A DNA stretch of 64,000 nt from a virus (taxonomy: Duplodnaviria; Caudoviricetes): positions 4,363 through 68,362 of the IMG/VR virus record IMGVR_UViG_3300005937_000014; one strand, 5' to 3'. Shown piece by piece: positions 1,460 to 60,947 of the stretch. The notes beneath the pieces were generated by a model. That model was not told the origin of the DNA, did not search any database, and worked only from the letters and a program-made list of their open reading frames with translations. The position numbers and the translations under genes are program-made. Every line of letters starts with the position of its first letter. Within the stretch, counting starts at the first letter, position 1.

Positions 1460-2056
<597 letters not shown>

Positions 2057-28200: not shown

Positions 28201-31200
28201 AGGTGCTGCGTGCGCTCGGTCTGCCGGACGACCTGGAGATCCGCGACGAGGGGCTGCGCGCGCTGCTTGCGAACGGCCGGGTGGACGTGCAGGTATTCCC
28301 GCACCGCGACGAGTACGGCCAGTCAGCCTGGTCGCTCGTGTACGGGCGACCGCGCAGCGACCGCTTCCAGGAGGTCGTGCTCCCGAAGGACAGGGACAGG
28401 CTGGAGGAGGGCGGCGCGAGGGCGGCGGCTGCCCCGCACTTCTTCGATCCCGAGATCGCGGAGATCGCCAACCCGGACTCGCAGGACAAGTACGGGCCGG
28501 ACGCGATGATGGTGCGTCCGAAGGCCGACGCGGGTGAGCGGTTCCTCCAGGATCTCGCGCCCTCCGAGGAGGGCTTCATGTACCGCGGCATGTCGGGCGA
28601 GGAGTACGAGGCGATCCAGCGCAGCGGGATCGTCCAGAGCATCGGGGACTACAACCTCGGCACCGAGCAGGAGGGGCTGACCTTCTTCGGTACGGACGTG
28701 GCGATGGCCGCGAGCTACGCGCACACTTACGCGCCGTACGCCTACAAGGCAACGCCCGAGCGGCCCGCCTACGTGATCAAGGTGCGCAAGCCCGCCGACG
28801 TGAAGCCGGACACGCGCGGCGAGATCGGGATGCCGGGCGCGTTGCCCGCCTCCGAGATCGTGGAGGTCTACGAGGGCCGCGTCTACGCGGTGCAGCCAGC
28901 CAACATCGACCTGGTCGCGAACAGCTACTCCCCGGCCGACGGCTATCGCAGCGGCTCCGGCTACGGCGGCGGCACGGACATCGTCTGGCGGAGGCTCGAC
29001 GTGGCTGCCGCCGCTGCTCCGGCCGAACCGCGCCCGGTCAGGTTCCGGGTGTCGCCGGGGATCGCGAACGAGATCGAGATGTTCGAGAACCTCGACACCG
29101 TCAACACCGAGGAGGACATCCTCCACTTCGCCCAGGAGTGGGGGAACAACGCGGCGGCGGAGCAGTTCGTGCGCGCCTGGGTGGCGGCGCGCGGGCGCAA
29201 GCGCGGCGACGGCTCGCTCGACCTGGAGTTGTCCCCGACGGCGACCAACTGGTTCACCACTCGCGCGCTCGACAACGCCATCGACATCTGGGAGGGCAAC
29301 GCCGACGTGGGCTACAACGCCCGCGCGAGCCGCGCGTTCATCCGGGCGGGCCGCTCGCTGATGACAAAGCTCCAGGCGGCGGCTGCGCGGGACGAGACGC
29401 TCTCGACGGGGATCGACACCGCGCAGGCACGGGCGCAACTCGACCGGGTCGAGCTACAGCAGATCATCGACGGCGAGCATCGGCGCGTGCATCTCGGCAA
29501 CACCGGCACCATCGAGCGCGCGCACGAGGCGGGCTGGAGCGACACCGAGGTGCTCCAGGTCGCGCGCGAGTTCACGGACGCGCTCGATGATTACGACGAG
29601 GTGCTGCAAGACCCGCGCTTCCAGCGGGTGCTGCGCTGGGGCCGGGACGGCAGGCTGGCCGACTCGGCGGCGGAGGGCTTGCTCAACCTCGGCACCAAGC
29701 GGGTCGGGATGACACTGCTCCGAGACGACAACCAGTCGCGCGACGGCTGGGGTGTCACAGACCTGAACGCCACCTCGGCTCGGGTAGACACGCGCAGGCC
29801 CGGCGTGCGGACGGCCGACACGCGCGACGAGCGGATCGGCAGCGAGTGGGCAGCCGACCCGCGCTACACGGCGATCCACGAGGCGCACCACATGCACGGC
29901 TCACGCACCGAGTTCGACCTGGGCAGCGAGGTTGCCTTCGCCTACCACGTCAACAAGCGGGGGCTGACCGGAGCGGGGCCGGACTCGATCAAGGTCGAGG
30001 TCGTCAATCGGCTGATCGGCGGCAAGGCTGGCGTGAACAGCCGCGCGTCCCGTGCGGTGCGGGCGCTGTTCGGTGACGACCTGCTCGATGAGTGGGCGCA
30101 GCTTCCCGGCTCGATCTACCGCGACCCGTTCCGGCGGCGCGTGCCGCCCCCGGTGGACAACAGCATCGCCGGGCGCGTGAACGACCTGAACGCCGTCGAG
30201 GGCATGGAGGCCAAGCTCGCCTGGCTGAGCGAGAAGCGCATGGAGGACGTGACCGGCCGGTCGTACGTGCGGCCCGTCGCGGAGGGCGAACGGGTGTTCA
30301 TGCGGATCAACGGCGAGTCGCTCGTGCTTCAGCCGGACGGCAGCGCGCGCGTGCTCGACAGCATGGACGACTACCTGACTCGCAGCGAGGGGATCGAGCG
30401 CGACCCGCTGGAGTTCGCGACCCGCGAGGCTGGCTTCCGCTCGCTCCAGGACGCCGCCTCCGAGATCGCCTTCCTCGACCAAGCCACGGAGATGTACCGC
30501 GACGCCGACGACGCGGCGCTCCTGGAGTTGCAGCGAACGTTCTCGCAGCTTGTCCACGGCAACTCGCTGATGGGGGTGACCGGCGCGCGCGAGGCGCTCC
30601 GCGACGCCGACATGGGGCGCTCCACCCTGACGGACCAGGAGCGGTCGATGCACGAGGGCCGCGAGGCCCGCTACCGCGAGATCAACACGCACGTGGCGAT
30701 GCGCAAGCGCAGCGCGAAGATCGCACGCGAGAAGCAGGCGCAGCGCGAGGCGGCGGAGAAGGGCGTGCTGACGGTCAGCGACGAGGAGTTCGCGGAGATG
30801 CTCGCGAACGCCGGGGACGTGTACGCCGACGCGGGCTACGTGGGCGAGTACAACCCGGACCTGTTCCGCACGAGCGACCTCTCCGGCCAGCCGATCCGCT
30901 ACTACATCACGCTCCCCGACGGCCGCGTCGCGCACCCCGACGAGCTACACGAGTCGCGCCGTCGCGGCAGGCTGGTGGTCGTCCACAACGTTGCCGCGCC
31001 GCTGGAGCGCCCGCGCTACGCCTCCGACGCCCTCTCGGACGGCGTCAAGCAGCGGGTCCGCGAGCGCGGCACGGTCGCCGTGCCCGAGCATGGTCCCTCC
31101 CTTGCTCCGCCGCGGCGAACGGCCGAGGAGGTGAGGCGCGCGGCCTCCATCGACGGGGACGCCGAGCGCCTTTCCTCGGCTGTCGCGGTGTTCTCCGAAG

Positions 31201-34200
31201 CCCTCCCGATAGAACACGATGTGCGCTATACTGAGGGCATGACCGACCAAGAGATCACACCCGTGGTTGAGCGCCCCCATCCGCTGACGACGATCACGCG
31301 GCGCGCTCGGCCTGAGCACCACGCCGCCTGGCGGCTCCGCCGCGACGCGACCGATGCCCGGTTCACCGCCAACGCCTCGAAGCAGTGGGACGGCGACGGC
31401 AACGTCATCGCGCAGGACAACGACCTTGAAGCCACTGCGAACACGGCCGAGCTTGCCGCCTCCGCCGCCGAGGCGCGTGTCGGCGGGCGCGTGTTCCGGT
31501 ACGACTCCTCGCAGCGCGCCAAGCTCGACGCGCAGATCGAGAAGCTCGCGAAGGCGGCGCGCAAGATCGGCCTCGATCCGCCCGTGGTCACCGACCTGGG
31601 CGACGAGACGGTCGAGCACCGCGAGAGCGAGATCGTCCCCGAGGGCGAGGGCGAGCAGCGCATCTACCAGTACGCGATGGTGAGCGGCTCCGAGCCGAAG
31701 ATCGCGGGCTGGGACTTCCTCGCCTCGCTCCAGAACGTCGAGGGGATGAACTTCATTCGCCGGATGCCCGGCTCCGACGAGTCGATCAACCTCGACGCCT
31801 TCCGCGACAGCGAGCCGGTCTGCGACTACTGCAAGACCAAGCGCGACCGCAAGATGACCTACGTCGTCACCAACGAGGAGGAGGGCGTCAAGCGCGTCGG
31901 CTCCTCGTGCATCCGCGACTTCCTCGGACACGGCGACCCGAACGCCATCGCCGCCTACATGGAGCGGTGGCAGGAGATGCTGGCCTTCTCGGACGAGGAG
32001 GACGACGAGGAGCGTGGCGGAGGCGGAGGCACGAGGCGGCTCGTGCCGACCGAGGCGTACCTGACGCACGTGGCGACGATGGTGCGCACGAATGGCTGGG
32101 TGTCCCGCTCGGCCATGAGCGGCCAGGCGACCGCCGACGAGGCCGACTCGAACTACTACCACTGGAGCCGCCAGAACACGAACAAGCAGGGCCAGCCGAT
32201 GTGGGTCGAGCCGACCGACGCCGACCGCGAGCGCGCGAAGGCGGCGCTGGCGTGGGTGCGCGAGCACATCGGCGCGAAGGTCCACCAGACGAGCGACGCG
32301 AGCGAGTTCGAGCACAACATGTACGTCGCCTCGCGCGGCGAGCACGTGCCGGAGCGCGGCTCGGGCTACCTCGCCTACGTGGTCGTCGCGCACGCCAAGC
32401 ACGAGGAGCGCGAGATCGAGCGGCGCAAGCGCGCCGAGGTCGAGGCCGACTCCAAGCACGTCGGCAGCGTGGGCGACCGGCTGAACGTGCGGGCCACGGT
32501 CATGTCCGTGTTCGAGCGCGACGGCGACTACGGCGTCACCTACATCACGAAGCTGATGGACGACGACGGCAACGTCTACAAGTGGTTCGGCTCCTCGGAG
32601 CTTGAGCGCGGCAAGGTCTACGAGGGCAAGTTCACGATCAAGAAGCACGACGAGTTCCGTGGCGTGAAGGAGACGGTGCTCACGCGCCCGAGCGGCCTGG
32701 GCCTGTACGACCCGGACGCTCCCCCGCCCGCCGAGAAGCCGACCAAGGTCGGGCAGCGGGTCGAGGTCAGCGTGTTCTCGAACCGGCTCGGTGGTGACGT
32801 GACGATCACGGTCGAGAAGCTCAAGTCGGGGTTCGCCGTCGAGTACGAGGGGCAGCGCGACGAGGAGGTCTACCGCACCTGGAAGAACGCGCAGGAGTGG
32901 GGCGCGGAGTTCGCTGGGGAAGTGAAGGCGCGCCGCGACTGGGCTGCGGAGAAGCTCGCCGGGCTGCCGGAGGGTACGACGATCAAGGGTGGCTGGCGGA
33001 ACCCGCATACGACGTACCGCGCGGCGACGGGCGGCTATGCCAAAGTGGGCGACCTGATCGCGGTGCGGCCGAAGCGGCCGGGCGAGTACGCGCCTGATAG
33101 CGAATGGGTGATCGCCAACCCGCGCGGCGGCGAGCCGACGCCGGAGGAGGTCAAGTGGGTTCCGGCCGAGATGCTCCCGAACGAGCGCGACCCGGAGAAC
33201 CCGCACATCGGCGTTACGCTCCCCGACGGTGTCACGCGCTGGCTGCCCGAGTCGGACGTGTACGTGCGGCCCTCCGACGTTGTGCGCAGCGAGGGGATCG
33301 AGCGCCCTGACTTCGATGCGGAGTGGGTGGCGAAGTACCGGGCGAAGCCTGCGCGGTCACGTGGGCGCACGCGCGCGAGCGACGTAGCTGGGTACGAGTT
33401 GATGCTGCGCGACCCCGATCTGTCTCACGAGGACAGGCTGCGCTACTCCGCGCGCATCTTGGAGATTCGTGGCGAGCAGGAGAAGGCGGACGCGATGCGC
33501 GAGCGGGCCGGTCTGCCGCGCAGCGAGGGGATCGACCTGCCGAAGTGGCAGGACACGCCCCAGCAGAAGAACGCGCTGCGCACGAACTCGGCTGCCCGGA
33601 AGGTGCGCGAGATGTACCCGTCCGGCACGCACGTGATCGTGACCCCCGGCGCTGGCGCGGAGCCGCGGCCGGGTGCGATGCAGGGCACGGTGCTTCGGCA
33701 CGTGCCGGGCCTGAACGCGCAGGGCGGGCACCTGAACGTCCGCTGGGAGAACGGCGTGGTCGGCAAGATCTCGCCCGGCAGCGTGCGGCCCACGGGGCCG
33801 AGCGTCCGCGAGCAGATCGCCGCCGCCTACGACCGTGGCGACTCGATCATGGCGATGGGCGCGCGGTTCGGCACGGACGAGCAGACGATTGCGCTGATCT
33901 CCTCGGTGACCGGCACGAGCCGCAAGCACCTGCGCGACGTGATGCACGCGCCCGAGATGCCCGCGCCTCCGCCCGCGCTGCTCGGGATGAGCGACGAGGA
34001 GATCAGGGAGCTTGGCGACGCCGACTTGCTGGAGCGTGAGCGCGCGTCGCTGGAGCGGCTGCTCGACACCCCGAACCGCGCGGCGGCTCGACGCGCGAAG
34101 GCGATCAACGACCAGGCCCGCGCCGAGCTTGACCGCCGGAAGATCGACTGGCAGGGGCTGACGCGCAGCGAGGGGCTGGAGCAGCAGCCGACGGAGCCGC

Positions 34201-37200
34201 GGCTGACCGCCAGGCAGCAGCAGATCCTCGACATGCTGCCGGGGCCGGAGGGCGGTACCTCCCCGACCGGCGGCACCCGTGCTGGGCTGGAAGCATCTGA
34301 ACTGGCCGGTCCGCTCGGGATGACCGACCGCGGCGTGCAGCAGGTGCTCTACGCGCTCGTGGATAAGGGGCTGGTCAACTACGACGAGGCGGGCTACTAC
34401 GCGCGTGAGCAGCCGCTGCCTCGGGTCGAGTCCGAGGGACTGCCGCTGCCGGACGCGCCGCCGCTCTCGAACCCGGCGTCGGCGGCGCGCGAGAGCTACC
34501 GCATCGTGTCGCCGGTCATCGGGCCGGACGTGGGCATCCGGGCGCAGGTGCCCGGCGCGGAGATGACGACCGAGACGCTCCGCGACCAGCAGTGGGGCAC
34601 GCGCGGCGACGGCTTCTTCGGCTCCGGCGCATACTTCGCGTCGAGTGCCGACGCGATCCCGAGCCTAGCAAGGGGGCGGGATCTCGTCGGCCTCGACCTG
34701 TCCGGCAAGAAGCTCTACATGCCGCCGAGCGAGGAGAACGCCGACCGGTTGCACAGGTGGCTCGGGGACGTGAACTACTACGCGACCCACGGGGGGATGG
34801 AGGACGACCTGCTGGCCCGCGAGGAGCGGAGCTTCAACGACCCGGAGCTACAGAAGCTCTACGGCGGCGAGCAGGAGGGAACCGCCATCGCAGAGAAGCT
34901 CGCACGCAGCGCGCCGTACGGCCTCTGGCGGCGCGTGAACCCGCCGATGATCGCGGGCGTGATCGAGGCGTCGCGTGCCGACCTGCGGGCCGGTCGGCTG
35001 GACCGCGACACGCCGAGCACGAGGATCATGCGCGCGCTCGGGTACGACGGCGTGGACACCCGGCACCTCCCCGCCCTCGACAACAGCCGCTTCGGCTCGG
35101 TGCTCTACCGCGACCCGGTGTTCCACGAGCCGGTCCCGGTGGACGAGCCGCCGCCCGAGCGCGAGCCGACGCTCCAGCGGCTCACGCACGAGATGCTCGA
35201 CGGGCTGATCGGCGGCAGCGAGCCGGGCGCGCGCGGCAAGGTGATGGACGGCGTCACCTACACCCCGAAGCTCAAGCGGCCGGTGACCGCGCTTGACTTC
35301 CAGGAGCGCGGCGAGATGTGGGTCGGCCCGAGGTTCTACGCGCTCAGCGCAGCCCAGCGCCGCAACGCGCTCGTGAGCGAGTTCGCCCGCGAGATCCGCA
35401 AGGGGGTCGAGGACCAGGAGTGGTTCAACGACCGCTCGAACTGGCCGGACGAGGTCGAGGGCTTCGACGCGGAGGCCGTCTACGAGGAGGCGTTCGACCC
35501 CGTCGCGCCCGAGCGCAGGTGGTCGTGGCTGGAGTCACCGGCAGGCCGCGGGATCATCGCGGAGGCGATCCACCAGGGCTTCCCGGTCGCGCCCGAGGTC
35601 GAGCAGCGGCTCGCGCACGGCGGCGACCCGACGCCCGAGCCGCCCGAGCCGCCGCCCGCGCCCGACCCGGACACGAACGACGCCGAGTTCGAGCAGATGC
35701 TCCAGCAGTTCCGCGACACCGGGCGCGCCTACGTCGCCATCAACGTCCTGTCCGGCGACGTGAAGGGCATGGATCTCGGCTTTCACCGGGTCGAGTACGA
35801 CGGCAGCTACAACCCGCCCGACGAGCCGGTGAACGTCGTCTACCGGCGTGACGTGTTCCGCAACTTCGACACCGGCCAGACCGTCGTGGTCGTCTCCGAC
35901 AACGACGCGATCATCAGCATCGACGGCACGACGGCGAGCACGAACCTGCCGAGCAACCCCGCGCCCGGCACGGCCGAGCACGTGGCCGCGTCCGTCCTAG
36001 AGCAGCCGCTGCGGAGTGCGCGCGCGCTGCTCGGGGAGGAGGGGTTCCAGCCTGGCGAGAAGTACGGCAAGTGGACGCGCTGGGTGAACCCGGACGGCCG
36101 GGCCATCGTCATGCGGCACGACAGGAAGATCGACGCGGCCTACCCGGATGTGCCGACCAGGCAGGAGGTCGAGTGGGCGCTCTCGCAGTTCGTGCAGGAG
36201 GACGACTTCGGCGGCTACCGGGTCGGCGTCAACTTCGCTGACCACCACGACGCGCTGGACGACATCGACTCGGGCTGGACGATGAGCGACTTCACGCCCG
36301 ACCCCGGCGGCAACGTCTACACCTATCGGCACGAGGAGAAGGCCGCGATCAGGATTCGCGTTGCCTCCGACGGCACCGTGGCGCAGATCGGCAGGCCCGA
36401 CCTGAGCGACACGCTGCGGATCGTCTCCGACAACGAGTACCAGCAGATGCTCCTGGCACGTGACGAGCAGGCCGACACCGCCGAGGCGTTCGCGCAGACG
36501 CTCGTCGGCCTCTCCCGCCAGCAGTTGTACGAGCGCCGGGAGTTCCAGTCGGGCTTCGGGGAGGAGTTGAACCGGCCGTACTACCACGGCGTGCTCGGGC
36601 CGGTCAGCGGCAACCAGCCGGGCACCGCGGTCTACTTCAACCACGGGGCGGGGCGCTCGCTGACGCTGGAGTTCGACAACGCGGGCTTCATCACGAGCGC
36701 GAGCGGCAGCGAGTTCAGCTACCCGACCGGGCACGAGATCGGCGGCGGCACGAGCAGGGGCGAGGAGATCGCGGACAACCTGCGCGGGAACCCCTACCCG
36801 CAGGACCGGCGCTCGTTCGCGTACTACCTGACCTCGAACGGCTACGAACTCTCGTCGGGGAGCGGCGGCGAGGGCGGCGCGTGGGAACGCTGGATTCACC
36901 CGCAGCGCGGCGACAGCATCCTCACCGAAGCCGCAGGCCCGCCGCTCCGCGAGGGCGACCCGGACTGGCAGGCAGGGACGCTCTCAGCGATCTACGCGAC
37001 CGAGGACACCCCGGCCGTGATGCTCACCCGCGCACGCGGCAGCCGCTACCGCTACCACCCCGAGGAGATGGTCGGGCAGCCGCACACCGAGGTCGTGGCG
37101 GCGCTCAACGTGAGCCAGTACCGGAAGGTCAGCGAGGCGCTCGGCGGCGACCCGAACGTCCACGAGTTCTCCGCCCAGAACGGCAGCGAGGTGCTCCGCT

Positions 37201-39284
37201 ACCGCTGGCACGTGGACACCGAGGGGGTCATCGACAAGGTCGGCTTCCCCGACCCCGACAACGCGACGGCGATTCTCACTGAGGAGGAGTTCAAGGCGAA
37301 GCGCCGGGCTGCGGCGAGTGCGCAGGCGGAGGCGCAGGCGAAGGCAGCCGCTGAGGCCGACCTGCGCCGGGCCGCGCGGCAGGAGAAGATCGACGCCCGG
37401 CAAGCGCCGGTCGAGATCGGGGAGCCGGGCAACGCGACGGTCCGCCTGATGCGCTCCGAGCACGGCTTCTCGGTCCAGTCGCGCAAGCGCGTTCGCTACA
37501 CGAAGCAGGAGTGGGCGGAGAAGGTCGCGGCGAAGCTCGGCAGGCCCGTGAGCGACCTGTCCGAGCGCGAACTCGGCAGGCCGGGGTTCCGCGGCTACTC
37601 CTACGTGCTGCGCGACTCGAACGGCCACACGCTCTCTCTGCGCGTGGACAGCCTCGTCCCCGAGGGTGCGACCTGGCTGGGGATGCCGATGAGCAAGAGC
37701 GACGGCGTGATCTCGCGAGTCGAGTGGAAGCCCGCGAAGGCCGTCGGCCGCGACCGGCTGCCGGAGGGCACGTTCGCGACCAGCCTGGACGAGATGATCG
37801 CGGACGGCCTCGGGCGCACCGACGAACTCGGGGAGCGGTACGGCGCGAAGGTGGACGTGCCGACGGTGATCACCACCTCCGGCAAGCAGGACCACTCCGC
37901 TCACCATGAGTGGAACGGCACCATCGTGTTCGGGCAGGGGATCGCCCCGGCGATGAAGGTCGCGATGGACAAGGTCGCGAGGGGCGAGCCGCTCACCGAC
38001 GAGGAGGCCGGGGACGCCTACTCGGCCTGGCACGTGTACCAGCACGAGATCAACCACGGCGTCAACCCGCTCCGCTCCGGCGAGTACGGCAAGAACAGCC
38101 CGCAGGTCGCGATGGAGGAGTCGCTGACCGAGGAGCTAGCGCACCCGCTCGCCATCGAGTGGCTCAAGACGATGGGGCCGGGCGGCGAGCAGATCCTCCA
38201 GTGGGCGGCGGCGAACCCGAGGAGCTACCAGAGGCTCGGCACCTACCGGCGGCACCGGCTGAACCTGCGCCGCGCGCTCACCGAGGCGGGCGTCCCCGAG
38301 GACGAGTGGCGCGAGACGATGACCCGGATGAAGTTCAACATGAGCCAGCCGGAGCGGTTCCAGTTCCTCGGGCGCAAGATCGCGGAGCAGACCGGCTCGG
38401 ACGAGGAGAGCGGCATCCGGCGCGTGCGCTCACTGCTTCAGCCGACCAAGGCGGGCCTGCACAAGACCGAGGGCGTCGGCAACGACTTCCAGCCGCTGCT
38501 TGACGTGACGCCCGACCTGGAGGGGATCGAGCCGCGCGCGAGCGAGCTAACCGTCCAGAACGGCGTGGCCTCGGTCAACACGAACGTCGAGGTGCCCGAC
38601 CCGCCGCCGGAGTGGCCCGCCCAGACGCGCTACTCGGTCAAGGGCGTCGATCCGAAGGGCGACCGCGTCGCCGTCCACGTGGGCAACCTCGGCACGCAGT
38701 GGATCGACGCCGGGCGTGTGCGCGTGCCGCCGATGACCGTGCAGCCCGAGTGGTCAACCAGGCGGACGTTCACGGTCGAGGCGGACGACGAGGTGCTGCT
38801 CAAGGACGGCCGGATCGTGCGCGTGACCGAACTGATCCCGACCGGCTACATCACCGACTACCGGTTCCGCGGCATCCCGCGCTCCGAGGAGGAGGAGGGC
38901 GGCGAAGGACTCGTGTTCGCCTACCAGCAGAAAGACATCGTCCGCAAGGTCGAGCCGCTCAAGGAGGACGACTTCGGCAACTCGGGCAGGGAGATCGTGG
39001 TGGGCGGTCGGCCGGTGCTGGTCGGGGATCTGCTGGTCGGCAAGCCGACACCGGTCGGGCGCTGGCAGGGCAACCGCGACCGCGAGTACCACTTCATCGC
39101 GAAGTACGGCGACACCGACCGGGCGGGGATCTACGGCTACCACGACGAGCAGCCGCGCCCGCTTGTCTCGGGGATGGTGCTCGGGGAATGGAACCCCGAC
39201 GAGCCGGGCAGGGTGCTCGAACTCGTGTTCCCGGTGGAGGGGTTGCGACGCCCGACCGAGACGATGATCGCGGAAGCCGCCTAG
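25233..39284 (+). CDS. Giant (4683 aa) MuF-like head-morphogenesis protein fused to polyvalent effector domains
   Basis: Follows the portal. N-terminal WKLS...HTPGC.....HP.LHAGCAC.L is the MuF signature. Three HExxH motifs (~27133, ~29875, ~38040), two ART-like segments (~28570 YRGMS, ~34600 GFFGSGAYF...GYDGV), a wHTH (~34200) and SH3/KOW-like modules. Confidence 0.8.
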   Translation: MAPPRQPPVAATTEPPPPTDTATPTGVAAVVGTGAAVGTTLAPAAAGTAAAALTAEAIRKATANILGAFGRFATQRQEVWIEVLPTRVQRRFPERTPEEVNTLVREERERERAFQRKARVRLERDLPRALRTADPARRVEKVQRILDRERRYLTQREEAVAERAYTRMEMIDLERLSPQGAFWKLSEGVRQHTPGCLAMGNKFWPWPVLHLIHPQLHAGCACHLYTLDQATERGFMTEAQVPDAKDAMRRAKKVIARLSDIYETATPEEIDAFLEEVEDGVWAEEAFYGRQVGERYAAGTTKGGQFRPRRGARPGRPTIRGKIRRSLRKLVPDLPTTPAQGARARDGDWMWMRGNFVFVPRDREFKRVIDGVEFTSPAGSGNIYRNGYLVHIPGEKPPWHNDLDKPSVVDARKVPSTPKMQEPLPTKRREAIDRATAEIHNAEFERIHQRVVAAVENQDGEHQPVKIGDTTATAIEVMRGNAFQPVQVTTIERYDEEGRQAALAVMRHESGAEVDVISAGGKVIDWNWRPTTEAEGHVPMPDSISNIGEFRQALAALAEETADRYGKPAPHLVAISRDPLTDDHAGYYSQRAGVIVVGVDSFKALDTYFDAKREDRPLTNYEAGDLWAGLATSVHEAMHAADNVPAGLYAYPDYKAFEEALNEEWARVETARLAERLGITEALQFQADFPENVYSRGSYGYYRQTLDQLLSNAKVAPEEREEFIENLRFNVPREDRNRLIAERMVQGATADYFPQLLPRPPWAEPDEPEQTLEDRIAEAKRMVEVALTRSEERRDKRQFDPLLALDLTQQPSAPEVNGVPVVPGALATVALEPRDEAGAREEVSGVIRRVMPTPTTFLTDVDLGDGRSVMVVPDNLVHVDGEPRSFEHAGQTFRVGDTIRYDHRLDGGYSTAVIERVEPTDRPGAWVAHARTTDDSLNPGKLVRLTPERINGTLLAPRAEPPAPRVPGEPQRVPDAVRSTGIPEADRMPEVLRALGLPDDLEIRDEGLRALLANGRVDVQVFPHRDEYGQSAWSLVYGRPRSDRFQEVVLPKDRDRLEEGGARAAAAPHFFDPEIAEIANPDSQDKYGPDAMMVRPKADAGERFLQDLAPSEEGFMYRGMSGEEYEAIQRSGIVQSIGDYNLGTEQEGLTFFGTDVAMAASYAHTYAPYAYKATPERPAYVIKVRKPADVKPDTRGEIGMPGALPASEIVEVYEGRVYAVQPANIDLVANSYSPADGYRSGSGYGGGTDIVWRRLDVAAAAAPAEPRPVRFRVSPGIANEIEMFENLDTVNTEEDILHFAQEWGNNAAAEQFVRAWVAARGRKRGDGSLDLELSPTATNWFTTRALDNAIDIWEGNADVGYNARASRAFIRAGRSLMTKLQAAAARDETLSTGIDTAQARAQLDRVELQQIIDGEHRRVHLGNTGTIERAHEAGWSDTEVLQVAREFTDALDDYDEVLQDPRFQRVLRWGRDGRLADSAAEGLLNLGTKRVGMTLLRDDNQSRDGWGVTDLNATSARVDTRRPGVRTADTRDERIGSEWAADPRYTAIHEAHHMHGSRTEFDLGSEVAFAYHVNKRGLTGAGPDSIKVEVVNRLIGGKAGVNSRASRAVRALFGDDLLDEWAQLPGSIYRDPFRRRVPPPVDNSIAGRVNDLNAVEGMEAKLAWLSEKRMEDVTGRSYVRPVAEGERVFMRINGESLVLQPDGSARVLDSMDDYLTRSEGIERDPLEFATREAGFRSLQDAASEIAFLDQATEMYRDADDAALLELQRTFSQLVHGNSLMGVTGAREALRDADMGRSTLTDQERSMHEGREARYREINTHVAMRKRSAKIAREKQAQREAAEKGVLTVSDEEFAEMLANAGDVYADAGYVGEYNPDLFRTSDLSGQPIRYYITLPDGRVAHPDELHESRRRGRLVVVHNVAAPLERPRYASDALSDGVKQRVRERGTVAVPEHGPSLAPPRRTAEEVRRAASIDGDAERLSSAVAVFSEALPIEHDVRYTEGMTDQEITPVVERPHPLTTITRRARPEHHAAWRLRRDATDARFTANASKQWDGDGNVIAQDNDLEATANTAELAASAAEARVGGRVFRYDSSQRAKLDAQIEKLAKAARKIGLDPPVVTDLGDETVEHRESEIVPEGEGEQRIYQYAMVSGSEPKIAGWDFLASLQNVEGMNFIRRMPGSDESINLDAFRDSEPVCDYCKTKRDRKMTYVVTNEEEGVKRVGSSCIRDFLGHGDPNAIAAYMERWQEMLAFSDEEDDEERGGGGGTRRLVPTEAYLTHVATMVRTNGWVSRSAMSGQATADEADSNYYHWSRQNTNKQGQPMWVEPTDADRERAKAALAWVREHIGAKVHQTSDASEFEHNMYVASRGEHVPERGSGYLAYVVVAHAKHEEREIERRKRAEVEADSKHVGSVGDRLNVRATVMSVFERDGDYGVTYITKLMDDDGNVYKWFGSSELERGKVYEGKFTIKKHDEFRGVKETVLTRPSGLGLYDPDAPPPAEKPTKVGQRVEVSVFSNRLGGDVTITVEKLKSGFAVEYEGQRDEEVYRTWKNAQEWGAEFAGEVKARRDWAAEKLAGLPEGTTIKGGWRNPHTTYRAATGGYAKVGDLIAVRPKRPGEYAPDSEWVIANPRGGEPTPEEVKWVPAEMLPNERDPENPHIGVTLPDGVTRWLPESDVYVRPSDVVRSEGIERPDFDAEWVAKYRAKPARSRGRTRASDVAGYELMLRDPDLSHEDRLRYSARILEIRGEQEKADAMRERAGLPRSEGIDLPKWQDTPQQKNALRTNSAARKVREMYPSGTHVIVTPGAGAEPRPGAMQGTVLRHVPGLNAQGGHLNVRWENGVVGKISPGSVRPTGPSVREQIAAAYDRGDSIMAMGARFGTDEQTIALISSVTGTSRKHLRDVMHAPEMPAPPPALLGMSDEEIRELGDADLLERERASLERLLDTPNRAAARRAKAINDQARAELDRRKIDWQGLTRSEGLEQQPTEPRLTARQQQILDMLPGPEGGTSPTGGTRAGLEASELAGPLGMTDRGVQQVLYALVDKGLVNYDEAGYYAREQPLPRVESEGLPLPDAPPLSNPASAARESYRIVSPVIGPDVGIRAQVPGAEMTTETLRDQQWGTRGDGFFGSGAYFASSADAIPSLARGRDLVGLDLSGKKLYMPPSEENADRLHRWLGDVNYYATHGGMEDDLLAREERSFNDPELQKLYGGEQEGTAIAEKLARSAPYGLWRRVNPPMIAGVIEASRADLRAGRLDRDTPSTRIMRALGYDGVDTRHLPALDNSRFGSVLYRDPVFHEPVPVDEPPPEREPTLQRLTHEMLDGLIGGSEPGARGKVMDGVTYTPKLKRPVTALDFQERGEMWVGPRFYALSAAQRRNALVSEFAREIRKGVEDQEWFNDRSNWPDEVEGFDAEAVYEEAFDPVAPERRWSWLESPAGRGIIAEAIHQGFPVAPEVEQRLAHGGDPTPEPPEPPPAPDPDTNDAEFEQMLQQFRDTGRAYVAINVLSGDVKGMDLGFHRVEYDGSYNPPDEPVNVVYRRDVFRNFDTGQTVVVVSDNDAIISIDGTTASTNLPSNPAPGTAEHVAASVLEQPLRSARALLGEEGFQPGEKYGKWTRWVNPDGRAIVMRHDRKIDAAYPDVPTRQEVEWALSQFVQEDDFGGYRVGVNFADHHDALDDIDSGWTMSDFTPDPGGNVYTYRHEEKAAIRIRVASDGTVAQIGRPDLSDTLRIVSDNEYQQMLLARDEQADTAEAFAQTLVGLSRQQLYERREFQSGFGEELNRPYYHGVLGPVSGNQPGTAVYFNHGAGRSLTLEFDNAGFITSASGSEFSYPTGHEIGGGTSRGEEIADNLRGNPYPQDRRSFAYYLTSNGYELSSGSGGEGGAWERWIHPQRGDSILTEAAGPPLREGDPDWQAGTLSAIYATEDTPAVMLTRARGSRYRYHPEEMVGQPHTEVVAALNVSQYRKVSEALGGDPNVHEFSAQNGSEVLRYRWHVDTEGVIDKVGFPDPDNATAILTEEEFKAKRRAAASAQAEAQAKAAAEADLRRAARQEKIDARQAPVEIGEPGNATVRLMRSEHGFSVQSRKRVRYTKQEWAEKVAAKLGRPVSDLSERELGRPGFRGYSYVLRDSNGHTLSLRVDSLVPEGATWLGMPMSKSDGVISRVEWKPAKAVGRDRLPEGTFATSLDEMIADGLGRTDELGERYGAKVDVPTVITTSGKQDHSAHHEWNGTIVFGQGIAPAMKVAMDKVARGEPLTDEEAGDAYSAWHVYQHEINHGVNPLRSGEYGKNSPQVAMEESLTEELAHPLAIEWLKTMGPGGEQILQWAAANPRSYQRLGTYRRHRLNLRRALTEAGVPEDEWRETMTRMKFNMSQPERFQFLGRKIAEQTGSDEESGIRRVRSLLQPTKAGLHKTEGVGNDFQPLLDVTPDLEGIEPRASELTVQNGVASVNTNVEVPDPPPEWPAQTRYSVKGVDPKGDRVAVHVGNLGTQWIDAGRVRVPPMTVQPEWSTRRTFTVEADDEVLLKDGRIVRVTELIPTGYITDYRFRGIPRSEEEEGGEGLVFAYQQKDIVRKVEPLKEDDFGNSGREIVVGGRPVLVGDLLVGKPTPVGRWQGNRDREYHFIAKYGDTDRAGIYGYHDEQPRPLVSGMVLGEWNPDEPGRVLELVFPVEGLRRPTETMIAEAA
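31214..31232 (+). promoter_or_regulatory. Operator/-10 element inside the giant ORF (ACAC-gat-GTGC-gc-TATACT) with an in-frame ATG at 31239
   Basis: Same motif as the intergenic copies; ATG 6 nt after the -10 and in frame with 25233. Confidence 0.7.
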
Positions 39285-56385: not shown

Positions 56386-56589
56386 GTGCGCATCACCGCA
56401 CAGAGTCTCGACGGCCGCTACCTCGTGATCGACGGGGAGCGCGTGCTCGACACGCACGAGCGCACGCTCTCGCAGCCGAAGTCGTCCGCCGACCTCGGGA
56501 CCGGCTGGCACCCCTACCGCGGCCCGCAGAACCTCGCCCGGCGGCTCCGCGACGTGGACCCGGTCGATGAAGTGAGCGTGACGACGTGA
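56386..56589 (+). CDS. Small hypothetical protein
   Basis: -10 TACACT about 7 nt upstream of the GTG (leaderless). Confidence 0.5.
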   Translation: MRITAQSLDGRYLVIDGERVLDTHERTLSQPKSSADLGTGWHPYRGPQNLARRLRDVDPVDEVSVTT

Positions 56590-58190
56590 GCATGGTCGTC
56601 ACCGACCTGGAGAATCTGCGTGACGAGATCGAGCGCACCGCCGCACGTGACGACCTGACCAGCGAGGAGCGCCGGGCGCTGTTGACCGCACTCCGCGCCC
56701 GGCTGACCGAGGCGACCGGCCTCTGCGACCGCTACCTGGCCGACGAGGATCGTGTCCGTGAGGGCGAGGCGCAGATCGCCTGGGAGCAGCGCGAGCGCCT
56801 GTACGCGAACGCCGACCTGCGCGCCCAGCTACTCGACCGCGGCCTGGCGACCGAGGACGAACTCGACAACCTCGGCTACTTCTCGCACGCCGATCTGGAG
56901 AAGCTCAGCGAGGCCGGGCGGCTGGAGGAGGCCGTCGAGTGGCTGGAGAAGCTGCACCCGCGCGAGCGGACCGGCAAGTTCAAGGAGAAGTTCGGCTCGT
57001 GGCTCCGCAGCAACCTGCGGTTCAAGTCCCCACCGAAGGAGCCGCTGGTTGGCCCACGCCGCCGACCGCGCACCCCGGAGGCTCCGTCCGCACCCTCTCC
57101 TCCGACGGAGCCACCGGAGGTGCCGGACGAGTTCGCGCAGAAGCGGACAGCGATGGAGAAGCGGGTGGCCGACTTCGTTGCCAGCGGGCTGGAGCGCGCG
57201 AAGCTGACCGACGCCGAGCAGCACTTCAACGAGGCGGGCGCAGTCAGCCAGCGGACGCTGCTCCAGTACGTCAACGACGCGGCGACGCAGCCGCGGAGCA
57301 TCGACCGCTACTCGACCGTGGACGCGAACGGCGTGCGCACCTGGGACGAGTCGCGGCGCGATCTGCACGAGGCGATCATCGACATGTTCCTGCGCCAGCG
57401 GGTGTTCAACCCGGACGGCGACGGCGGCAAGGGGACGTGGGAGTTGTCGGCCGAGGCACCGCCGCTGGAGGGCGTCGAGAACCCGGAGGTGCTGTTCTCG
57501 GGAGGCGGCTACGCGGCCGGGAAGTCGAGCGTGCTCAAGATCAACCGCGCCGCCGGGAAGGAGCCGGAGTCCGGGTACGACGGGCCGACGCTCGTGCTCG
57601 ACCCGGACATGATCAAGGCGCAGCTACCCGAGTTCCAGGCGCTGCTCGGCTCCGACCCGGAGGCGAACCTGCTCGTCTACGAGGAGGCGTGGCTGATCGC
57701 CCAGGAGATCCAGGCGCGCGCCCAGGAGCGGAAGCTGAACATGGTCGTGGACGGGATCTCGGACACCTCGCCGGACGAGATGATCCAGCGGGCGCAGAGC
57801 TTCTTCGACAACGGCTACACGGGCAAGGCGATCTACGTGGACATCCCGACCGAGGAGGCGATGCGCCGGGCGGAGAACCGCGCCCGCAACGCGAAGGACG
57901 ACTCGGACAAGCGGCACATCCCCGAGGTGATCATGCGCGCCGTCCACCGCGACGTGAGCGCGACCGTGCCGAACATGCTCCGGCGACTGGCCGAGGACAA
58001 CATCCCGCTGGAGGTCGAGGTGTGGGACAACGACCAGGGGAAGGACGAGCAGGGATCGTTCCGCCCGCCGAAGCGGCACATGCACTACGTGCCCGGCACG
58101 GGCGAGAACGTCGAGGACGAGTTCCTCTGGGGGCGCTTCAAGGGGAAGGCCCAGGAGGAGATCAAGCTGCCCGGCGGCACCACGGCGTGA
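56586..58190 (+). CDS. LHPR-tagged zeta-toxin-like P-loop kinase
   Basis: WLEKLHPRERTGKF tag; LFSGGGYAAGKSS (Walker A), VLDPDMIK, NMVVDG, RA.NRA...RHIPE (zeta/AAA_33 pattern). Confidence 0.8.
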   Translation: MSMVVTDLENLRDEIERTAARDDLTSEERRALLTALRARLTEATGLCDRYLADEDRVREGEAQIAWEQRERLYANADLRAQLLDRGLATEDELDNLGYFSHADLEKLSEAGRLEEAVEWLEKLHPRERTGKFKEKFGSWLRSNLRFKSPPKEPLVGPRRRPRTPEAPSAPSPPTEPPEVPDEFAQKRTAMEKRVADFVASGLERAKLTDAEQHFNEAGAVSQRTLLQYVNDAATQPRSIDRYSTVDANGVRTWDESRRDLHEAIIDMFLRQRVFNPDGDGGKGTWELSAEAPPLEGVENPEVLFSGGGYAAGKSSVLKINRAAGKEPESGYDGPTLVLDPDMIKAQLPEFQALLGSDPEANLLVYEEAWLIAQEIQARAQERKLNMVVDGISDTSPDEMIQRAQSFFDNGYTGKAIYVDIPTEEAMRRAENRARNAKDDSDKRHIPEVIMRAVHRDVSATVPNMLRRLAEDNIPLEVEVWDNDQGKDEQGSFRPPKRHMHYVPGTGENVEDEFLWGRFKGKAQEEIKLPGGTTA

Positions 58191-58209
58191 GCTTGTAGCG
58201 CACGTCGTC

Positions 58210-58238
58210 TTGACACGATGTGAGTCACGTGAGAGCAT
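58210..58238 (+). promoter_or_regulatory. Promoter of the RAMP/array locus (TTGACA-17-GAGCAT) with a degenerate operator ACAC-gat-GTGA over the -35
   Basis: TTGACA 58210-58215, ACACGATGTGA 58213-58223. Confidence 0.5.
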
Positions 58239-58294
58239 CGCGTGCTGACTCCACCAAGCCTCGGTAACAGGCGAGGCGGGAAGGACAGCACACG

Positions 58295-58900
58295 ATGAAG
58301 CTCTACCTCGTGGCCGACGGCCGCGCAGAGTCGGGCGGGTCGCCGCTGATCATGCACAGCGACCGGCTCGTAGATCCTCTCGATGAGTGGACGCGCAAGA
58401 TCGCGGCGCTCACCAGCAAGCGCAAAAGGACCGAGGAGGATCACGTCGCCATCGGTCGGCTGGAGTTCGAGGGCGGCATGTACCAGAACGGCAACGGGCC
58501 GTGCGTCCCGGCCCTCAACATCCTGCGCTGCTTGCAGGAGGCGGCATCGCGGCATAAGCGGGGCAAGGACGTGAAGCGCGGTGTCTACCCGCGCGAGCAG
58601 CACGCAGACCTCCAGTACGAGGGGCCGCGTGACGTGGACGAGTTGTGGAAGGCGGGCACGTTCGCGCTCCGCAAGCCCGTCGGCGTGAACCGGGGCCAGT
58701 CGCGCACGGTGCGCACCCGGCCGATCTTCCAGGACTGGCAGCTTCGGTTCCTGATCGAAGTCGATCCGCTGATCTTCGACCGGGACGCCATTGTGCAGTT
58801 CTGGCGGGAGGCGGGGGTTTATGAGGGGCTGGGCGACATGCGCCCGATCTACGGCAGGTTCAAGGGCGATGTCCAGGACGCTCCCAAGGACGCGGTATGA
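58295..58900 (+). CDS. Stand-alone Cas7/RAMP-like protein (Vipr-like candidate)
   Basis: N-terminal beta strand plus SPLIMH, central P..NI..CL.EAA, R..F.DW.L.F.I, and a C-terminal Gly-rich loop GLGDMRPIYGRF characteristic of RAMP/Cas7-group proteins. No other cas genes nearby. Confidence 0.72.
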   Translation: MKLYLVADGRAESGGSPLIMHSDRLVDPLDEWTRKIAALTSKRKRTEEDHVAIGRLEFEGGMYQNGNGPCVPALNILRCLQEAASRHKRGKDVKRGVYPREQHADLQYEGPRDVDELWKAGTFALRKPVGVNRGQSRTVRTRPIFQDWQLRFLIEVDPLIFDRDAIVQFWREAGVYEGLGDMRPIYGRFKGDVQDAPKDAV

Positions 58901-59091
58901 GCCATCCCTACGACCAGTTCGTACACGTGCTGACGCGAATCGCGCAGGCGACGAGCATCAAGCGCGTGATGACCGAGGACGAGATCCGCTTCCAGCGGAA
59001 CGGCGGGCCGACGGCGGAGTTGATCGAGCGGGTGACGGCGGAGTTGCCGAAGCTCGAAGCGATTGCGCGGCGGCTGGAGGCCGACCTCTGA
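58897..59091 (+). CDS. 64-aa accessory protein between the RAMP gene and the array
   Basis: ATGA overlap with the RAMP gene; its stop codon abuts the first pentamer. Confidence 0.6.
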   Translation: MSHPYDQFVHVLTRIAQATSIKRVMTEDEIRFQRNGGPTAELIERVTAELPKLEAIARRLEADL

Positions 59092-60059
59092 GGCGCGGCG
59101 AGGCAAGGCTCCCCTTACTGGGCGTGGCGAGGCTCCCCTGCTCCGTCCGACGGAGCGAGCACGAAGCCAGGCGGTACCCGGCATGGCATGGCCCGGCTAG
59201 ACCAGGCTCGGTGTGACTAGGCAGACCACGTGCTCGGCTTGGCGCGGCATGGTTGGGCATGGCACGGTTCGGCTGGGCGTGGCAAGGCTTCCCTGCTCCG
59301 TTCGACGGAGCGAGCAGCCCGGCGGGGCGAGGCGAGGCTTGGTGCGGCGTGGTAGGGCATGGCGTGGCGCGGCAAGGCTCCCCTTGGCGGTGCCGGGCTT
59401 GGCTTGGCGCGGCGGGGCAAGGCTCGGCCAGGCACGGCTTGGCGAGGCTCCCCTCTGGCGCGGCAGGACTTGGCATGGCCCGGCAAGGCTCGGTACGGCT
59501 TGGCAGGACTCGGCTGGGCAAGGCTTCCCTCTCGGCTGGTCTGGGCAACGGCGGGGCATGGCGCGACCGGGCCGGGCTGGGCACGGCAGGACTTGGCTCC
59601 CCTCTCGGCGCGGCAGGTCTTGGTCGGGCGTGGCCGGGCATGGCACGGCTTGGCGAGGCAGGGCGAGGCTCCCCTCTCGGGGCTGGGCGTGGCGCGGCAG
59701 AGCACGGCAGGTCGTGGCAGGTCGCGGCGGGACTAGGCGGGTTCGGCTTGGCAGATCGTGGCTCAGCAGGGCAGGACAAGGCTCCCCTCGTGGCTAGCCG
59801 AGGCCCGGCAAGGCGTGGCCTGTCCGGGCAGGACGTGGCTGGTCGGGGCAAGGCGAGGCCCGGCCTGGCGCGGCACGGCTTGGCCTGGCACGGCCTGGCA
59901 TGGCGCGGCTCGGCTCGACTAGGCGCGGCGTGGCTCCCCTCTCGTGGCTAGGCTCGGCTTGGCCTGGCGCGGCCAGGTATGGCATGGCTCGGCTCGGCAA
60001 GGCGAGGCCCGGCTAGGTACGGCCTGACACGGCTTGGCGGGGCTGGGCAAGGCTTCCCT
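59092..60059 (+). repeat. Array of phased GG(C/T)-NN pentamers in about 10 units delimited by GGCT(C/T)CCCT (candidate guide-RNA array)
   Basis: Delimiters at 59107, 59131, 59286, 59376, 59446, 59522, 59595, 59667, 59780, 59932, 60051. In-phase runs of 10, 11, 12, 13, 12, 28 and 21 pentamers. Two GCTCCGT-(C/T)CG-ACGGAGC hairpins. Confidence 0.9.
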
Positions 60060-60074
60060 AACGGGCGGCTCGTG

Positions 60075-60353
60075 ATGATGCGAGCCGCCCACCCTCCTAC
60101 ACTGGTGCGCGTGAGGCTGTACGAGATCGTCCGCGAGGACGAATTCGGGGTCGCCGTCGCGGAGGCCGTCGAGTTCGAGAATGGCTCCGTCGCCGTCGGG
60201 CCGTACATGCTGTCCGACCCGCCGAATGTGAGCGTGTTCGCCAGTCTGGACGACATGCTGCTCGTCCACGAGCGGCGCGGCGAGCGGCGCGTGGTCGGCC
60301 GGGAGACGCCGGACGACTTCCTCGGCGGGGATGACCTGACGCCAGCGGCGTAG
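60075..60353 (+). CDS. Conserved small actinophage protein
   Basis: GVAVAEAVEFENGSVAV...SVFASLDDM...H motif. Confidence 0.6.
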   Translation: MMRAAHPPTLVRVRLYEIVREDEFGVAVAEAVEFENGSVAVGPYMLSDPPNVSVFASLDDMLLVHERRGERRVVGRETPDDFLGGDDLTPAA

Positions 60354-60459
60354 ACTGCCGCCGGGCGGCGGGGTTACCTTCGACGGGACACGCCGCCCTC
60401 TCCGCGAGATTCCCCCGTTCGGGTGAGCGCACGCTGTTCGATTCTGGCGTAGGGTGAGC

Positions 60460-60520
60460 GCGAGCTACTGACCCGCCGAAGTCGTCCGCTATGCGCACTT
60501 GCCGCCGGAGTCACTAGCCC
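60460..60520 (+). ncRNA. Conserved 61-nt 5' leader, copy B (candidate cis-regulatory RNA)
   Basis: 58/61 identical to the reverse complement of 14159-14219; follows the -10 TAGGGT (60450-60455). Confidence 0.55.
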
Positions 60521-60548
60521 CAGCAGACTCACTAGCACCGGAGGCTTC

Positions 60549-60947
60549 ATGACTCACTCGTCGTACGACCGGCGCGAGGGCGGCACGCTCGCGGAGGCCC
60601 GTGCCGGAAACAAGTTCATTGGCATCAGGGACGGCAAGGAGTATCTCGTGACCAGGACCGGCGCTCCGGCGGGGCTGGAGGCCATCGACCTCGCGACCGG
60701 CAAGGCGCGCAAGCCCTGGGCGTACACCACCAAGGTGGCGGCGCTGCTCACCCCGACGCCGGACACGGACTGGGTCGGCGTCTACGAGGCGGCGGAGATC
60801 CTCGGGATCGAGCGGTCGCGCTTCCCGAAGTGGATCGCCGCGGGGATCGTGCCCGAGCCAGCCGCGAGGCTTGCCTGCGGGCCGGTCTGGTTCCGCTGGC
60901 AGATCGAGGCCGTGCGGATCGAGCGCGAGCGGCGGCGCAACCGGTAG
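60549..60947 (+). CDS. MTHSSY-domain protein fused to an AlpA/MerR-like HTH
   Basis: N-terminus paralogous to 13914-14129; C-terminal VGVYEAAEILGIERSR...W...G..PEPAARLACGPVW matches the HTH repeats in 9015-9479. Confidence 0.75.
   Translation: MTHSSYDRREGGTLAEARAGNKFIGIRDGKEYLVTRTGAPAGLEAIDLATGKARKPWAYTTKVAALLTPTPDTDWVGVYEAAEILGIERSRFPKWIAAGIVPEPAARLACGPVWFRWQIEAVRIERERRRNR

What the first reader, a model, noticed from the sequence alone, without database searches (positions are those of the whole stretch)
58210..60059. Stand-alone Cas7/RAMP-like gene plus a GG(C/T)-NN pentamer array: candidate RNA-guided system with a dinucleotide guide code
Seen: a promoter, a 201-aa ORF ending in the Gly-rich loop GLGDMRPIYGRF, a 64-aa ORF, and then 968 bp of strictly 5-nt-phased GGC/GGT (occasionally GAC/GTC) triplets, each followed by a freely varying dinucleotide. 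The constant positions stay fixed while NN is near-random, so this is not a simple microsatellite and the information must lie in the NN. Established: a C-terminal G-rich loop and RRM-type strands define RAMP/Cas7-family proteins, which polymerise along guide RNAs with fixed periodicity. Inference: each unit is a guide RNA, one protein subunit binds each GGY, and the NN pairs read a target non-contiguously, plausibly in competing phages. From memory, this matches phage systems recently named VIPR (Vipr protein plus GGY/NN RNAs); I cannot verify that here. There are no cas1/cas2/cas3 genes and no CRISPR repeat-spacer array.
Basis: partly seen in the sequence, partly recalled or inferred. Interest (0 to 1): 0.95.

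Follow-up and report, generated by a model that had tools for sequence, protein, structure and literature searches.

The report
VIPR guide-RNA locus in an actinophage
This stretch of an uncultured high-GC phage carries a genuine VIPR system, a kind first published in April 2026: a small Cas7-like protein plus an array of GGY-NN guide RNAs that phages use to silence rival mobile elements. It is a new example of a known kind, not a new kind.

Summary

Downstream, 59092-60059 holds 116 in-register GGY-NN pentamers. Entropy is 0.07/0.57/0.36 bits at GGY and 1.96/1.98 bits at NN. Eleven GGCT(C/T)CCCT tails divide the tract into units. No such tract occurs elsewhere in the 68-kb phage contig.

All 22 relatives examined carry same-strand arrays beside the gene. 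A 64-aa ORF that overlaps the vipr stop codon is conserved in the closest relatives.

VIPR was published in April 2026 (bioRxiv 10.64898/2026.04.26.720920), so this is a new member of a known kind.

Differences from SUSP1:
- a 9-nt unstructured tail instead of a ~40-nt pseudoknot tail;
- three over-long (19-28 repeat) units, probably fused;
- a tiny accessory protein with no family.

No natural target was found. There is no self-targeting. One 24/26 metagenome match, in an RHH-MazF antitoxin gene, is borderline.

Side finding: four cultured actinophage relatives end their guide RNAs with tRNA-like minihelices, which none of the four VIPR papers read here mentions.

The parts
58278..58285 (+). 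Shine-Dalgarno-like GGGAAGGA, 9 nt before the vipr ATG
   Evidence: Read directly from the sequence. The promoter upstream was not confirmed by the consensus scan.
58295..58900 (+). vipr gene: 201-aa minimal RAMP (RRM core, helical bundle about residues 23-61, thumb hairpin 124-145 with R142, G-loop 174-189)
58897..59091 (+). 64-aa accessory ORF (candidate vap); its ATG overlaps the vipr TGA as ATGA
   Evidence: Homologues lie directly after vipr in L005, L013 and L010 (38-40% identity, E 3e-7 to 2e-6) and weakly in L011. No Pfam or PHROG family.
59092..59139 (+). two truncated mini-units (3 and 2 repeats), each with a GGCTCCCCT tail
59140..59161 (+). 7-bp hairpin GCTCCGT/ACGGAGC plus GAGCA after tail 2; duplicated at 59295-59316
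   Evidence: 44-nt duplication at 93% identity. It folds, but z is only -1.3.
59180..59224 (+). tail-less GGY-NN tract (7 perfect and 2 imperfect repeats)
59236..59294 (+). vrRNA unit g1: 10 repeats (11 counting TGCtc at 59231) plus tail GGCTTCCCT
59295..59316 (+). second copy of the post-tail hairpin (loop TTCGA)
59321..59384 (+). vrRNA unit g2: 11 repeats plus tail
59386..59454 (+). vrRNA unit g3: 12 repeats plus tail
59457..59530 (+). vrRNA unit g4: 13 repeats plus tail
59550..59603 (+). vrRNA unit g5: 9 repeats plus tail, preceded by 17 out-of-phase nt
59607..59675 (+). vrRNA unit g6: 12 repeats plus tail; shares its first three repeats with g4
59681..59788 (+). degenerate long unit (about 19 repeats with a 1-nt phase slip near 59741) plus tail
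59792..59940 (+). unit g7: 28 repeats plus tail; probably two fused units (internal GGCAAGGCGAGGCCCGGC at 59847-59864)
   Evidence: the same 18-mer recurs in g8
59946..60059 (+). unit g8: 21 repeats plus tail; probably two fused units (same 18-mer at 59996-60013)
60063..60090 (+). 11-bp GC-rich hairpin closing the array; candidate terminator without a U-tract
   Evidence: -26 kcal/mol, z -2.9. Not called by the consensus terminator scan.

Best explanation
This is a VIPR (Viral Interference Programmable Repeat) locus on an uncultured, probably actinobacterial, phage.

Proposed mechanism:
- vipr and a translationally coupled 64-aa accessory gene are transcribed together with a downstream array of about 9-11 vrRNAs.
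- Each vrRNA is a run of GGY-NN pentamers ending in the constant tail GGCT(C/T)CCCT.
- By homology with SUSP1 Vipr, protomers polymerise along each vrRNA, one per repeat.
- The thumb (R142) and the G-loop (D181, R183) sequester each GGY and present the NN pairs.
- The NN pairs base-pair with double-stranded DNA, skipping every third target base. This forms an R-loop triplex that blocks transcription of a rival mobile element.

Shown here: protein homology, the fold, array statistics, co-occurrence of gene and array, absence of self-targets, and the phage context.

Inferred: transcription, RNA processing, filament assembly, the 1-nt-skip rule in this clade, and the targets.
For: - Sequence: the window protein matches PDB 36pp 'SUSP1 Vipr protein' at E 4.1e-19 over residues 13-194. 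The family profile matches at 2.6e-61, full length.
- Contact residues: SUSP1 H17, R138, D177 and R179 (paper 720927) align to H21, R142, D181 and R183. R142 is invariant and R183 nearly invariant in 148 relatives.
- Array: entropy and periodicity statistics and 11 constant tails.
- Co-occurrence: 4 cultured actinophages and 18 IMG/VR relatives all carry GGY-NN tracts next to the gene. Every tract is on the gene's strand, and six loci share the GGCTCCCCT tail.
- Phage context: TerL, portal, and an IMG/VR virus record.
- Self-targeting: best 1-nt-skip scores on the phage's own contig equal the shuffled-guide null, as the papers report for VIPR.
Against: - No natural target was found, so the code is untested here.
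- Some SUSP1 contact residues differ: W178 to M182, K33 to A37, E71/M72 to L74/N75.
- The tail is 9 nt and shows no structure beyond shuffles. In SUSP1 a ~40-nt pseudoknot caps the filament, and assembly appears to proceed 3' to 5' from it.
- Units of 19-28 repeats exceed the published 9-16 range, and mini-units of 2-3 repeats suggest some decay.
- No promoter was confirmed.
Confidence: 0.93

Rival explanations
1. It is a VIPR relative that uses a different recognition rule or substrate from SUSP1, for example another skip length or RNA targets. The published 1-nt-skip dsDNA code would then not apply to this clade.
For: The Y-pocket and skip-base contact residues differ from SUSP1 (W178 to M, E71/M72 to L/N, K33 to A). 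No 1-nt-skip target was found. The tail architecture differs.
Against: The G1/G2 contacts H21, R142, D181 and R183 are conserved. The repeat is canonical GGY-NN with a 5-nt period. The paper reports the same code across all seven types. My target searches covered very little of the relevant sequence space, and the host is unknown.
Confidence: 0.08
2. The locus is a decaying or partly inactive VIPR. The protein is intact, but much of the array is eroded (fused, truncated or frameshifted units) and no longer yields working guides.
For: Two mini-units of 2-3 repeats, one tail-less tract, one unit with a 1-nt slip, and two units of 21 and 28 repeats with an internal shared 18-mer that looks like a mutated tail. 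Non-GGY scaffolds (GAC, GTC, AGC, TGC, GCC) occur in about 10% of repeats.
Against: Six units have 9-13 clean repeats with perfect tails. The papers describe frequent internal degeneracy in working vrRNAs. The vipr and accessory ORFs are intact and coupled.
Confidence: 0.06
3. The 968-bp tract is a protein-coding low-complexity repeat (for example the 232-aa + strand or 297-aa - strand ORFs across it) or an inert slippage minisatellite, unrelated to the upstream gene.
For: Long ORFs run through the tract on both strands.
Against: - A 5-nt period rotates through all three codon phases, so protein selection cannot hold positions 1-3 fixed while 4-5 vary freely.
- A slippage satellite would copy the NN too, yet NN entropy is 3.9 of 4 bits.
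- Gene and array co-occur on the same strand in 22 of 22 relatives despite unrelated NN content.
Confidence: 0.01

Closest known systems
SUSP1 / Pseudomonas fulva VIPR systems (type II VIPR; bioRxiv 10.64898/2026.04.26.720920 and 720927; PDB 36pp)
   Same: - A homologous Vipr protein of about 200 aa: 30-31% identity to SUSP1-type and 39% to Pseudomonas phage copies.
- GGY-NN pentamer repeats, 9-13 per clean unit.
- A constant 3' tail and a downstream array on the gene's strand.
- A two-gene operon carried on a phage.
- No self-targets.
   Different: - The tail is 9 nt (GGCTCCCCT) with 1-5 nt before the next unit. SUSP1 has a ~40-nt pseudoknot tail.
- No vrRNA lies upstream of the gene.
- There are 11 tails, against 4 vrRNAs in SUSP1.
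- Three units have 19-28 repeats.
- The accessory protein is 64 aa, against a 146-aa gene after vipr in a SUSP1-like coliphage.
- The Y-pocket residues and W178 are not conserved.
- The VIPR type could not be assigned because the type tables are not held.
- The compact layout may correspond to the paper's 'staggered arrays' (fig. S18), which I could not see.
VIPR loci of cultured actinophages (Mycobacterium phage LittleE gp34, prophiBWHA-1 gp43, Gordonia phages Trine gp41 and MakoManhole gp78)
   Same: The closest cultured relatives of the protein (39-43% identity), with GGY-NN tracts on the same strand flanking the gene and an actinobacterial host range.
   Different: - Their tails are tRNA-like minihelices of about 45 nt (T-loop GGTTCGANTCC plus an acceptor-like stem). 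That motif is absent from the window's contig.
- Their accessory gene is 179-267 aa.
- Their arrays lie on both sides of the gene.
Class 1 CRISPR backbone RAMPs (Cas7 family: Csm3, Cmr4, type VII Cas7, gRAMP domains)
   Different: - Sequence identity is 8-16%.
- The RRM is single, with no partner subunits (Cas10, Cas5, Cas11).
- There is no CRISPR repeat-spacer array, and no cas genes among the ORFs scanned.
- The period is 5 nt, not 6.
- The guide is read non-contiguously.

Membership tests
VIPR system | Vipr protein: sequence homologue of characterised Vipr proteins | tested here: met
   PDB 36pp_D SUSP1 Vipr: E 4.1e-19 (residues 13-194 against 9-190) alone, and 2.6e-61 with the family profile. 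tblastn hits 130 phage records, including Felixounavirus-type phages.
VIPR system | Conservation of the residues that contact GGY in SUSP1 (H17, R138, D177, W178, R179) | tested here: met
   Four of five are kept: H21, R142, D181 and R183. W178 is M182 here. The skip-base contact K33 is A37, with R34 and K35 adjacent. Y-pocket residues E71/M72 are L74/N75.
VIPR system | vrRNA: at least 4 tandem YNNGG repeats with conserved GGY and hypervariable NN | tested here: met
   116 in-register pentamers. Entropy is 0.07/0.57/0.36 bits against 1.96/1.98 bits, and all 16 NN occur. Six clean units have 9-13 repeats.
VIPR system | Constant 3' tail after each repeat tract | tested here: met
   GGCT(C/T)CCCT occurs 11 times and is shared with relatives L005, L006, L010, L012, L013 and L019. 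It is much shorter than the SUSP1 tail, and no conserved fold was detected.
VIPR system | Gene and array co-occur across relatives | tested here: met
   22 of 22 related loci have GGY-NN runs beside the gene, all on its strand and none on the opposite strand.
VIPR system | Minimal locus without cas genes or a CRISPR array, usually on a virus or provirus | tested here: met
   The neighbours are a zeta-toxin-domain protein and a small phage ORF. The contig has TerL and portal and is an IMG/VR virus record. Rfam finds nothing in 58000-60600. A dedicated cas-gene scan of the whole contig was not run.
VIPR system | Accessory vap gene (vap1-6) | tested here: inconclusive
   A 64-aa ORF coupled to vipr is conserved in 3-4 close relatives but has no family. 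It could not be compared with vap1-6 because those sequences are not held.
VIPR system | No self-targeting under the 1-nt-skip rule | tested here: met
   The best xNN score on the phage's own contig equals the shuffled-guide null for all 8 guides, for example g4 at 16/26 against a null of 16.4.
VIPR system | Natural targets (at least 80% NN match, 1-nt skip) in rival mobile elements | tested here: inconclusive
   There is no convergent target. One 24/26 match to g4 lies in metagenome contig L080 (RHH antitoxin of a MazF pair), with roughly 0.14 chance after 33 seed hits. Nothing was found in 301 Mycobacteriales genomes or in the viral scans.
VIPR system | vrRNAs are expressed and co-purify with Vipr; programmable repression | not testable with these tools
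   Needs small-RNA sequencing, pull-down and reporter assays.
CRISPR-Cas class 1 effector (type III/VII Cas7) | CRISPR repeat-spacer array and partner cas genes (cas10, cas5, cas6, cas11) | tested here: not met
   There is no repeat-spacer array: the repeats are 5-nt GGY-NN units. No cas family appeared among the ORFs scanned. Only the fold is shared.

The most novel reading that the evidence does not exclude
The window and its closest relatives may form a VIPR sub-type that the published papers do not describe. Its features would be compact arrays whose guides end in a 9-nt unstructured C-rich tail rather than a pseudoknot, ribozyme or other structured cap, together with a 64-aa helical accessory protein. 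In the sister clade in cultured actinophages, guides would instead be matured by host tRNA-processing enzymes through tRNA-like minihelix tails. The window's two post-tail hairpins (loop TTCGA, 3' GAGCA) would then be relics of such minihelices.
Probability: 0.3. Interest if true: 0.5.

Novelty: new member of a known kind. Interest (0 to 1): 0.3.

Why it matters
VIPR is a months-old discovery studied so far in coliphage SUSP1 and a Pseudomonas prophage. This locus and its 22 relatives show that the same machinery is common in high-GC, probably actinobacterial, phages, including cultured and genetically tractable ones (LittleE on M. smegmatis; Trine and MakoManhole on Gordonia).

Tail architecture varies sharply even among proteins that are 40-60% identical. 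In SUSP1 the tail is where filament assembly appears to start, so a 9-nt tail and a tRNA-like tail are natural experiments on how guides are matured and how filaments nucleate.

Tried and rejected
- Single-sequence AlphaFold failed (pLDDT 33). A 148-row alignment solved it.
- The search for related loci with the single protein, and with the deep alignment A1, returned nothing. The closer alignment A2 worked in viral contigs but found nothing in genome contigs.
- There is no megablast relative of the phage among deposited phages, and the best TerL match is 29% identity, so the host is inferred only from Rpf and GC content.
- Target searches:
  - exact seeds of 18-20 fixed bases for g1-g4 and g6 in IMG/VR;
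  - one metagenome scan;
  - g4 with up to 3 mismatches in 301 Mycobacteriales genomes;
  - all guides at skip 0-3 against the phage's own contig and 22 related loci.
  These gave only chance-level results, apart from the borderline L080 match. L088 (19/20 for g1) was rejected: it is a 35% GC contig and only 1 of 2 positions beyond the seed matches.
- Rfam found no family in the locus, so no hammerhead ribozyme and no tRNA, and none in the actinophage loci. ARAGORN found no tRNA in the window.
- The protein atlas and the word-based homologue search gave nothing usable for the 64-aa protein.
- The VIPR type could not be assigned, because figures and data tables are not held.

Full report
**Observation**

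The region reads as described.
- A 201-aa ORF (58295-58900) follows an AAGGA-type ribosome-binding site.
- A 64-aa ORF (58897-59091) has its ATG overlapping the first gene's TGA.
- A tract from 59092 to 60059 is made of GGY-NN pentamers.

Identity autocorrelation in the tract peaks at lags 5, 10, 15 and 20 (0.49-0.54, against about 0.25 at other lags). Over 116 in-register pentamers, entropy is 0.07, 0.57 and 0.36 bits at positions 1-3 and 1.96 and 1.98 bits at positions 4-5. All 16 dinucleotides occur. NN is 47% GC in a 70% GC window.

Perfect runs of five or more units total 86 units in the tract. There are none anywhere else in the 68,362-bp contig on either strand. Markov-1 surrogates of the region average 0.01 units.

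- The phase is strict only within units. It resets at each of 11 GGCT(C/T)CCCT delimiters.
- The promoter was not confirmed by a consensus scan.

**Anatomy**

The delimiters split the array as follows:
- two truncated mini-units (3 and 2 repeats);
- a tail-less tract;
- six clean units of 9-13 repeats (g1-g6);
- one unit of about 19 repeats with a 1-nt slip;
- two long units of 28 and 21 repeats.

Both long units contain the same in-phase 18-mer GGCAAGGCGAGGCCCGGC (59847 and 59996) where a tail would be expected. They are therefore probably fused pairs whose parts fall in or near the published 9-16 repeat range (inference).

The last NN before a tail is usually (A/G)A. Two tails are followed by a 7-bp hairpin plus GAGCA, as part of a 44-nt duplication at 93% identity. 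An 11-bp GC hairpin closes the array. Tails plus linkers are only 10-14 nt, so the units abut.

**The protein**

Pfam finds nothing, but phrog_4652, a family of unknown function, matches at 3e-41. The family is large: 2,202 clusters at 50% identity.

The solved-structure sequence search is decisive. PDB 36pp, 'SUSP1 Vipr protein', matches the window protein at E 4.1e-19 and a 148-sequence family profile at 2.6e-61, end to end.

The cryo-EM paper lists the SUSP1 residues that hold the two guanines. They map as follows:
- H17, R138, D177 and R179 align to H21, R142, D181 and R183.
- R142 is invariant in the 148-sequence alignment, and R183 is nearly invariant.
- W178, K33 and the pyrimidine-pocket residues E71/M72 are not conserved.

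**Context and relatives**

The contig is an IMG/VR virus record with an estimated completeness of 56%. It carries a large terminase, a portal, a Ku-like protein and a secreted Rpf-type transglycosylase. The Rpf relatives found were in Corynebacterium, Mycobacterium, Rhodococcus and Micrococcus genomes. Together with the GC content, this points to an actinobacterial host.

tblastn finds the protein in 130 deposited phages. I examined four cultured actinophages and 18 IMG/VR relatives. Every one has GGY-NN tracts beside the gene, always on the gene's strand. Six share the GGCTCCCCT tail, and others have clade-specific short tails.

The 64-aa ORF has homologues directly after vipr in the closest relatives. 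It has no recognisable family. More distant relatives carry a different, larger accessory gene.

**Comparison with the literature**

VIPR was described in April 2026. It consists of a minimal RAMP, an accessory vap gene, and vrRNAs of 9-16 YNNGG repeats with a constant 3' tail. It is mostly viral. It recognises dsDNA by pairing the NN bases while skipping one target base. It is used against satellites and rival prophages.

Structures show one protomer per repeat and apparent 3'-to-5' assembly from the tail.

The window meets every sequence-level criterion I could test (see the membership table).

**Targets**

I followed the published rule: GGY is replaced by one wildcard, both strands are searched, and at least 80% NN match is required.
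- No guide matches the phage's own contig or the related loci better than shuffled guides do. This agrees with the reported absence of self-targeting.
- Exact interior seeds in IMG/VR gave 0-1 hits each.
- One metagenome scan gave 33 seed hits. One of them, L080, extends to 24 of 26 positions. It lies inside a ribbon-helix-helix antitoxin gene upstream of a MazF/PemK toxin gene.
- I estimate that extension has about a 0.14 probability by chance. The skipped bases fall on codon position 1 rather than the wobble position. It is a lead only.
- g4 with up to 3 mismatches was not found in the 301 Mycobacteriales genomes searched.

The host is unknown and the searchable space was small, so the lack of targets says little.

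**Side finding**

In LittleE, prophiBWHA-1, Trine and MakoManhole, each repeat tract is followed by a tail of about 45 nt. The tail contains GGTTCGANTCC within a 6-bp stem, enclosed by an acceptor-like stem.

Across ten copies, 8 of 11 predicted pairs show compensatory changes on both sides, and the T-stem is never broken. Rfam and ARAGORN do not call these as tRNAs.

None of the four VIPR papers read mentions tRNA. No paper in the library holds both 'vrRNA' and 'tRNA-like'. I could not see the figures.

These look like tRNA-like minihelices that could recruit RNase P or RNase Z to cut the arrays (inference). The window lacks the motif. Its two post-tail hairpins, with loop T(C/T)CGA and 3' GAGCA, may be collapsed relics of it (inference).

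**Verdict**

This is a real and correctly interpreted VIPR locus. It is a new member of a published kind, with a distinctive compact short-tail array and a small accessory gene. Its interest is modest.

Noticed in passing
L001:1650-1699, 2983-3032, 3101-3150; L002:2726-2775, 2861-2910, 4325-4374; L003:3563-3612, 3684-3733, 3793-3842; L004:2848-2897: In four cultured actinophages, the VIPR repeat tracts end in tRNA-like minihelices (T-loop GGTTCGANTCC, a 6-bp T-stem and an acceptor-like stem). Compensatory changes occur in 8 of 11 pairs. None of the VIPR papers read mentions them. They may be RNase P/Z processing signals.
   Followed up: partly
L080:4711-4748 (-), metagenome contig Ga0326727_10049759: Guide g4 matches 24 of 26 informative positions under the 1-nt-skip rule, inside a ribbon-helix-helix antitoxin gene directly upstream of a MazF/PemK toxin gene. 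Significance is borderline (about 0.14), and the skip base is at codon position 1.
   Followed up: partly
window 59847-59864 and 59996-60013: The same in-phase 18-mer GGCAAGGCGAGGCCCGGC sits inside both over-long units, where a tail would be expected. It may be a mutated tail marking fused vrRNAs.
   Followed up: partly
window 59457-59471 and 59607-59621: Units g4 and g6 start with the same three repeats (GGCgc GGCag GNCtt). GGCAG followed by GAC or GTC recurs through the array. This may be a conserved 5' element or recent duplication.
   Followed up: no
window 56586-58190 (+): The gene just upstream of vipr encodes a 534-aa protein with a C-terminal zeta-toxin/AAA kinase domain (PF06414, 1.9e-18). 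It also matches a PHROG 'minor head protein' family.
   Followed up: no
window 1475-2056 (+) and 12377-13453 (+): The phage encodes an Rpf-type transglycosylase (PF06737, 1.6e-27) and a Ku-like end-binding protein (PF02735, 4e-19). Both fit an actinobacterial host.
   Followed up: partly
window 25233-39284 (+): A single 4,683-aa ORF lies directly after the portal gene. It was not examined here.
   Followed up: no
window 59092-60059: The NN positions are 47% GC in a 70% GC genome. This would fit targets read at codon positions 1-2 of high-GC genes, or AT-richer targets. Not tested.
   Followed up: no
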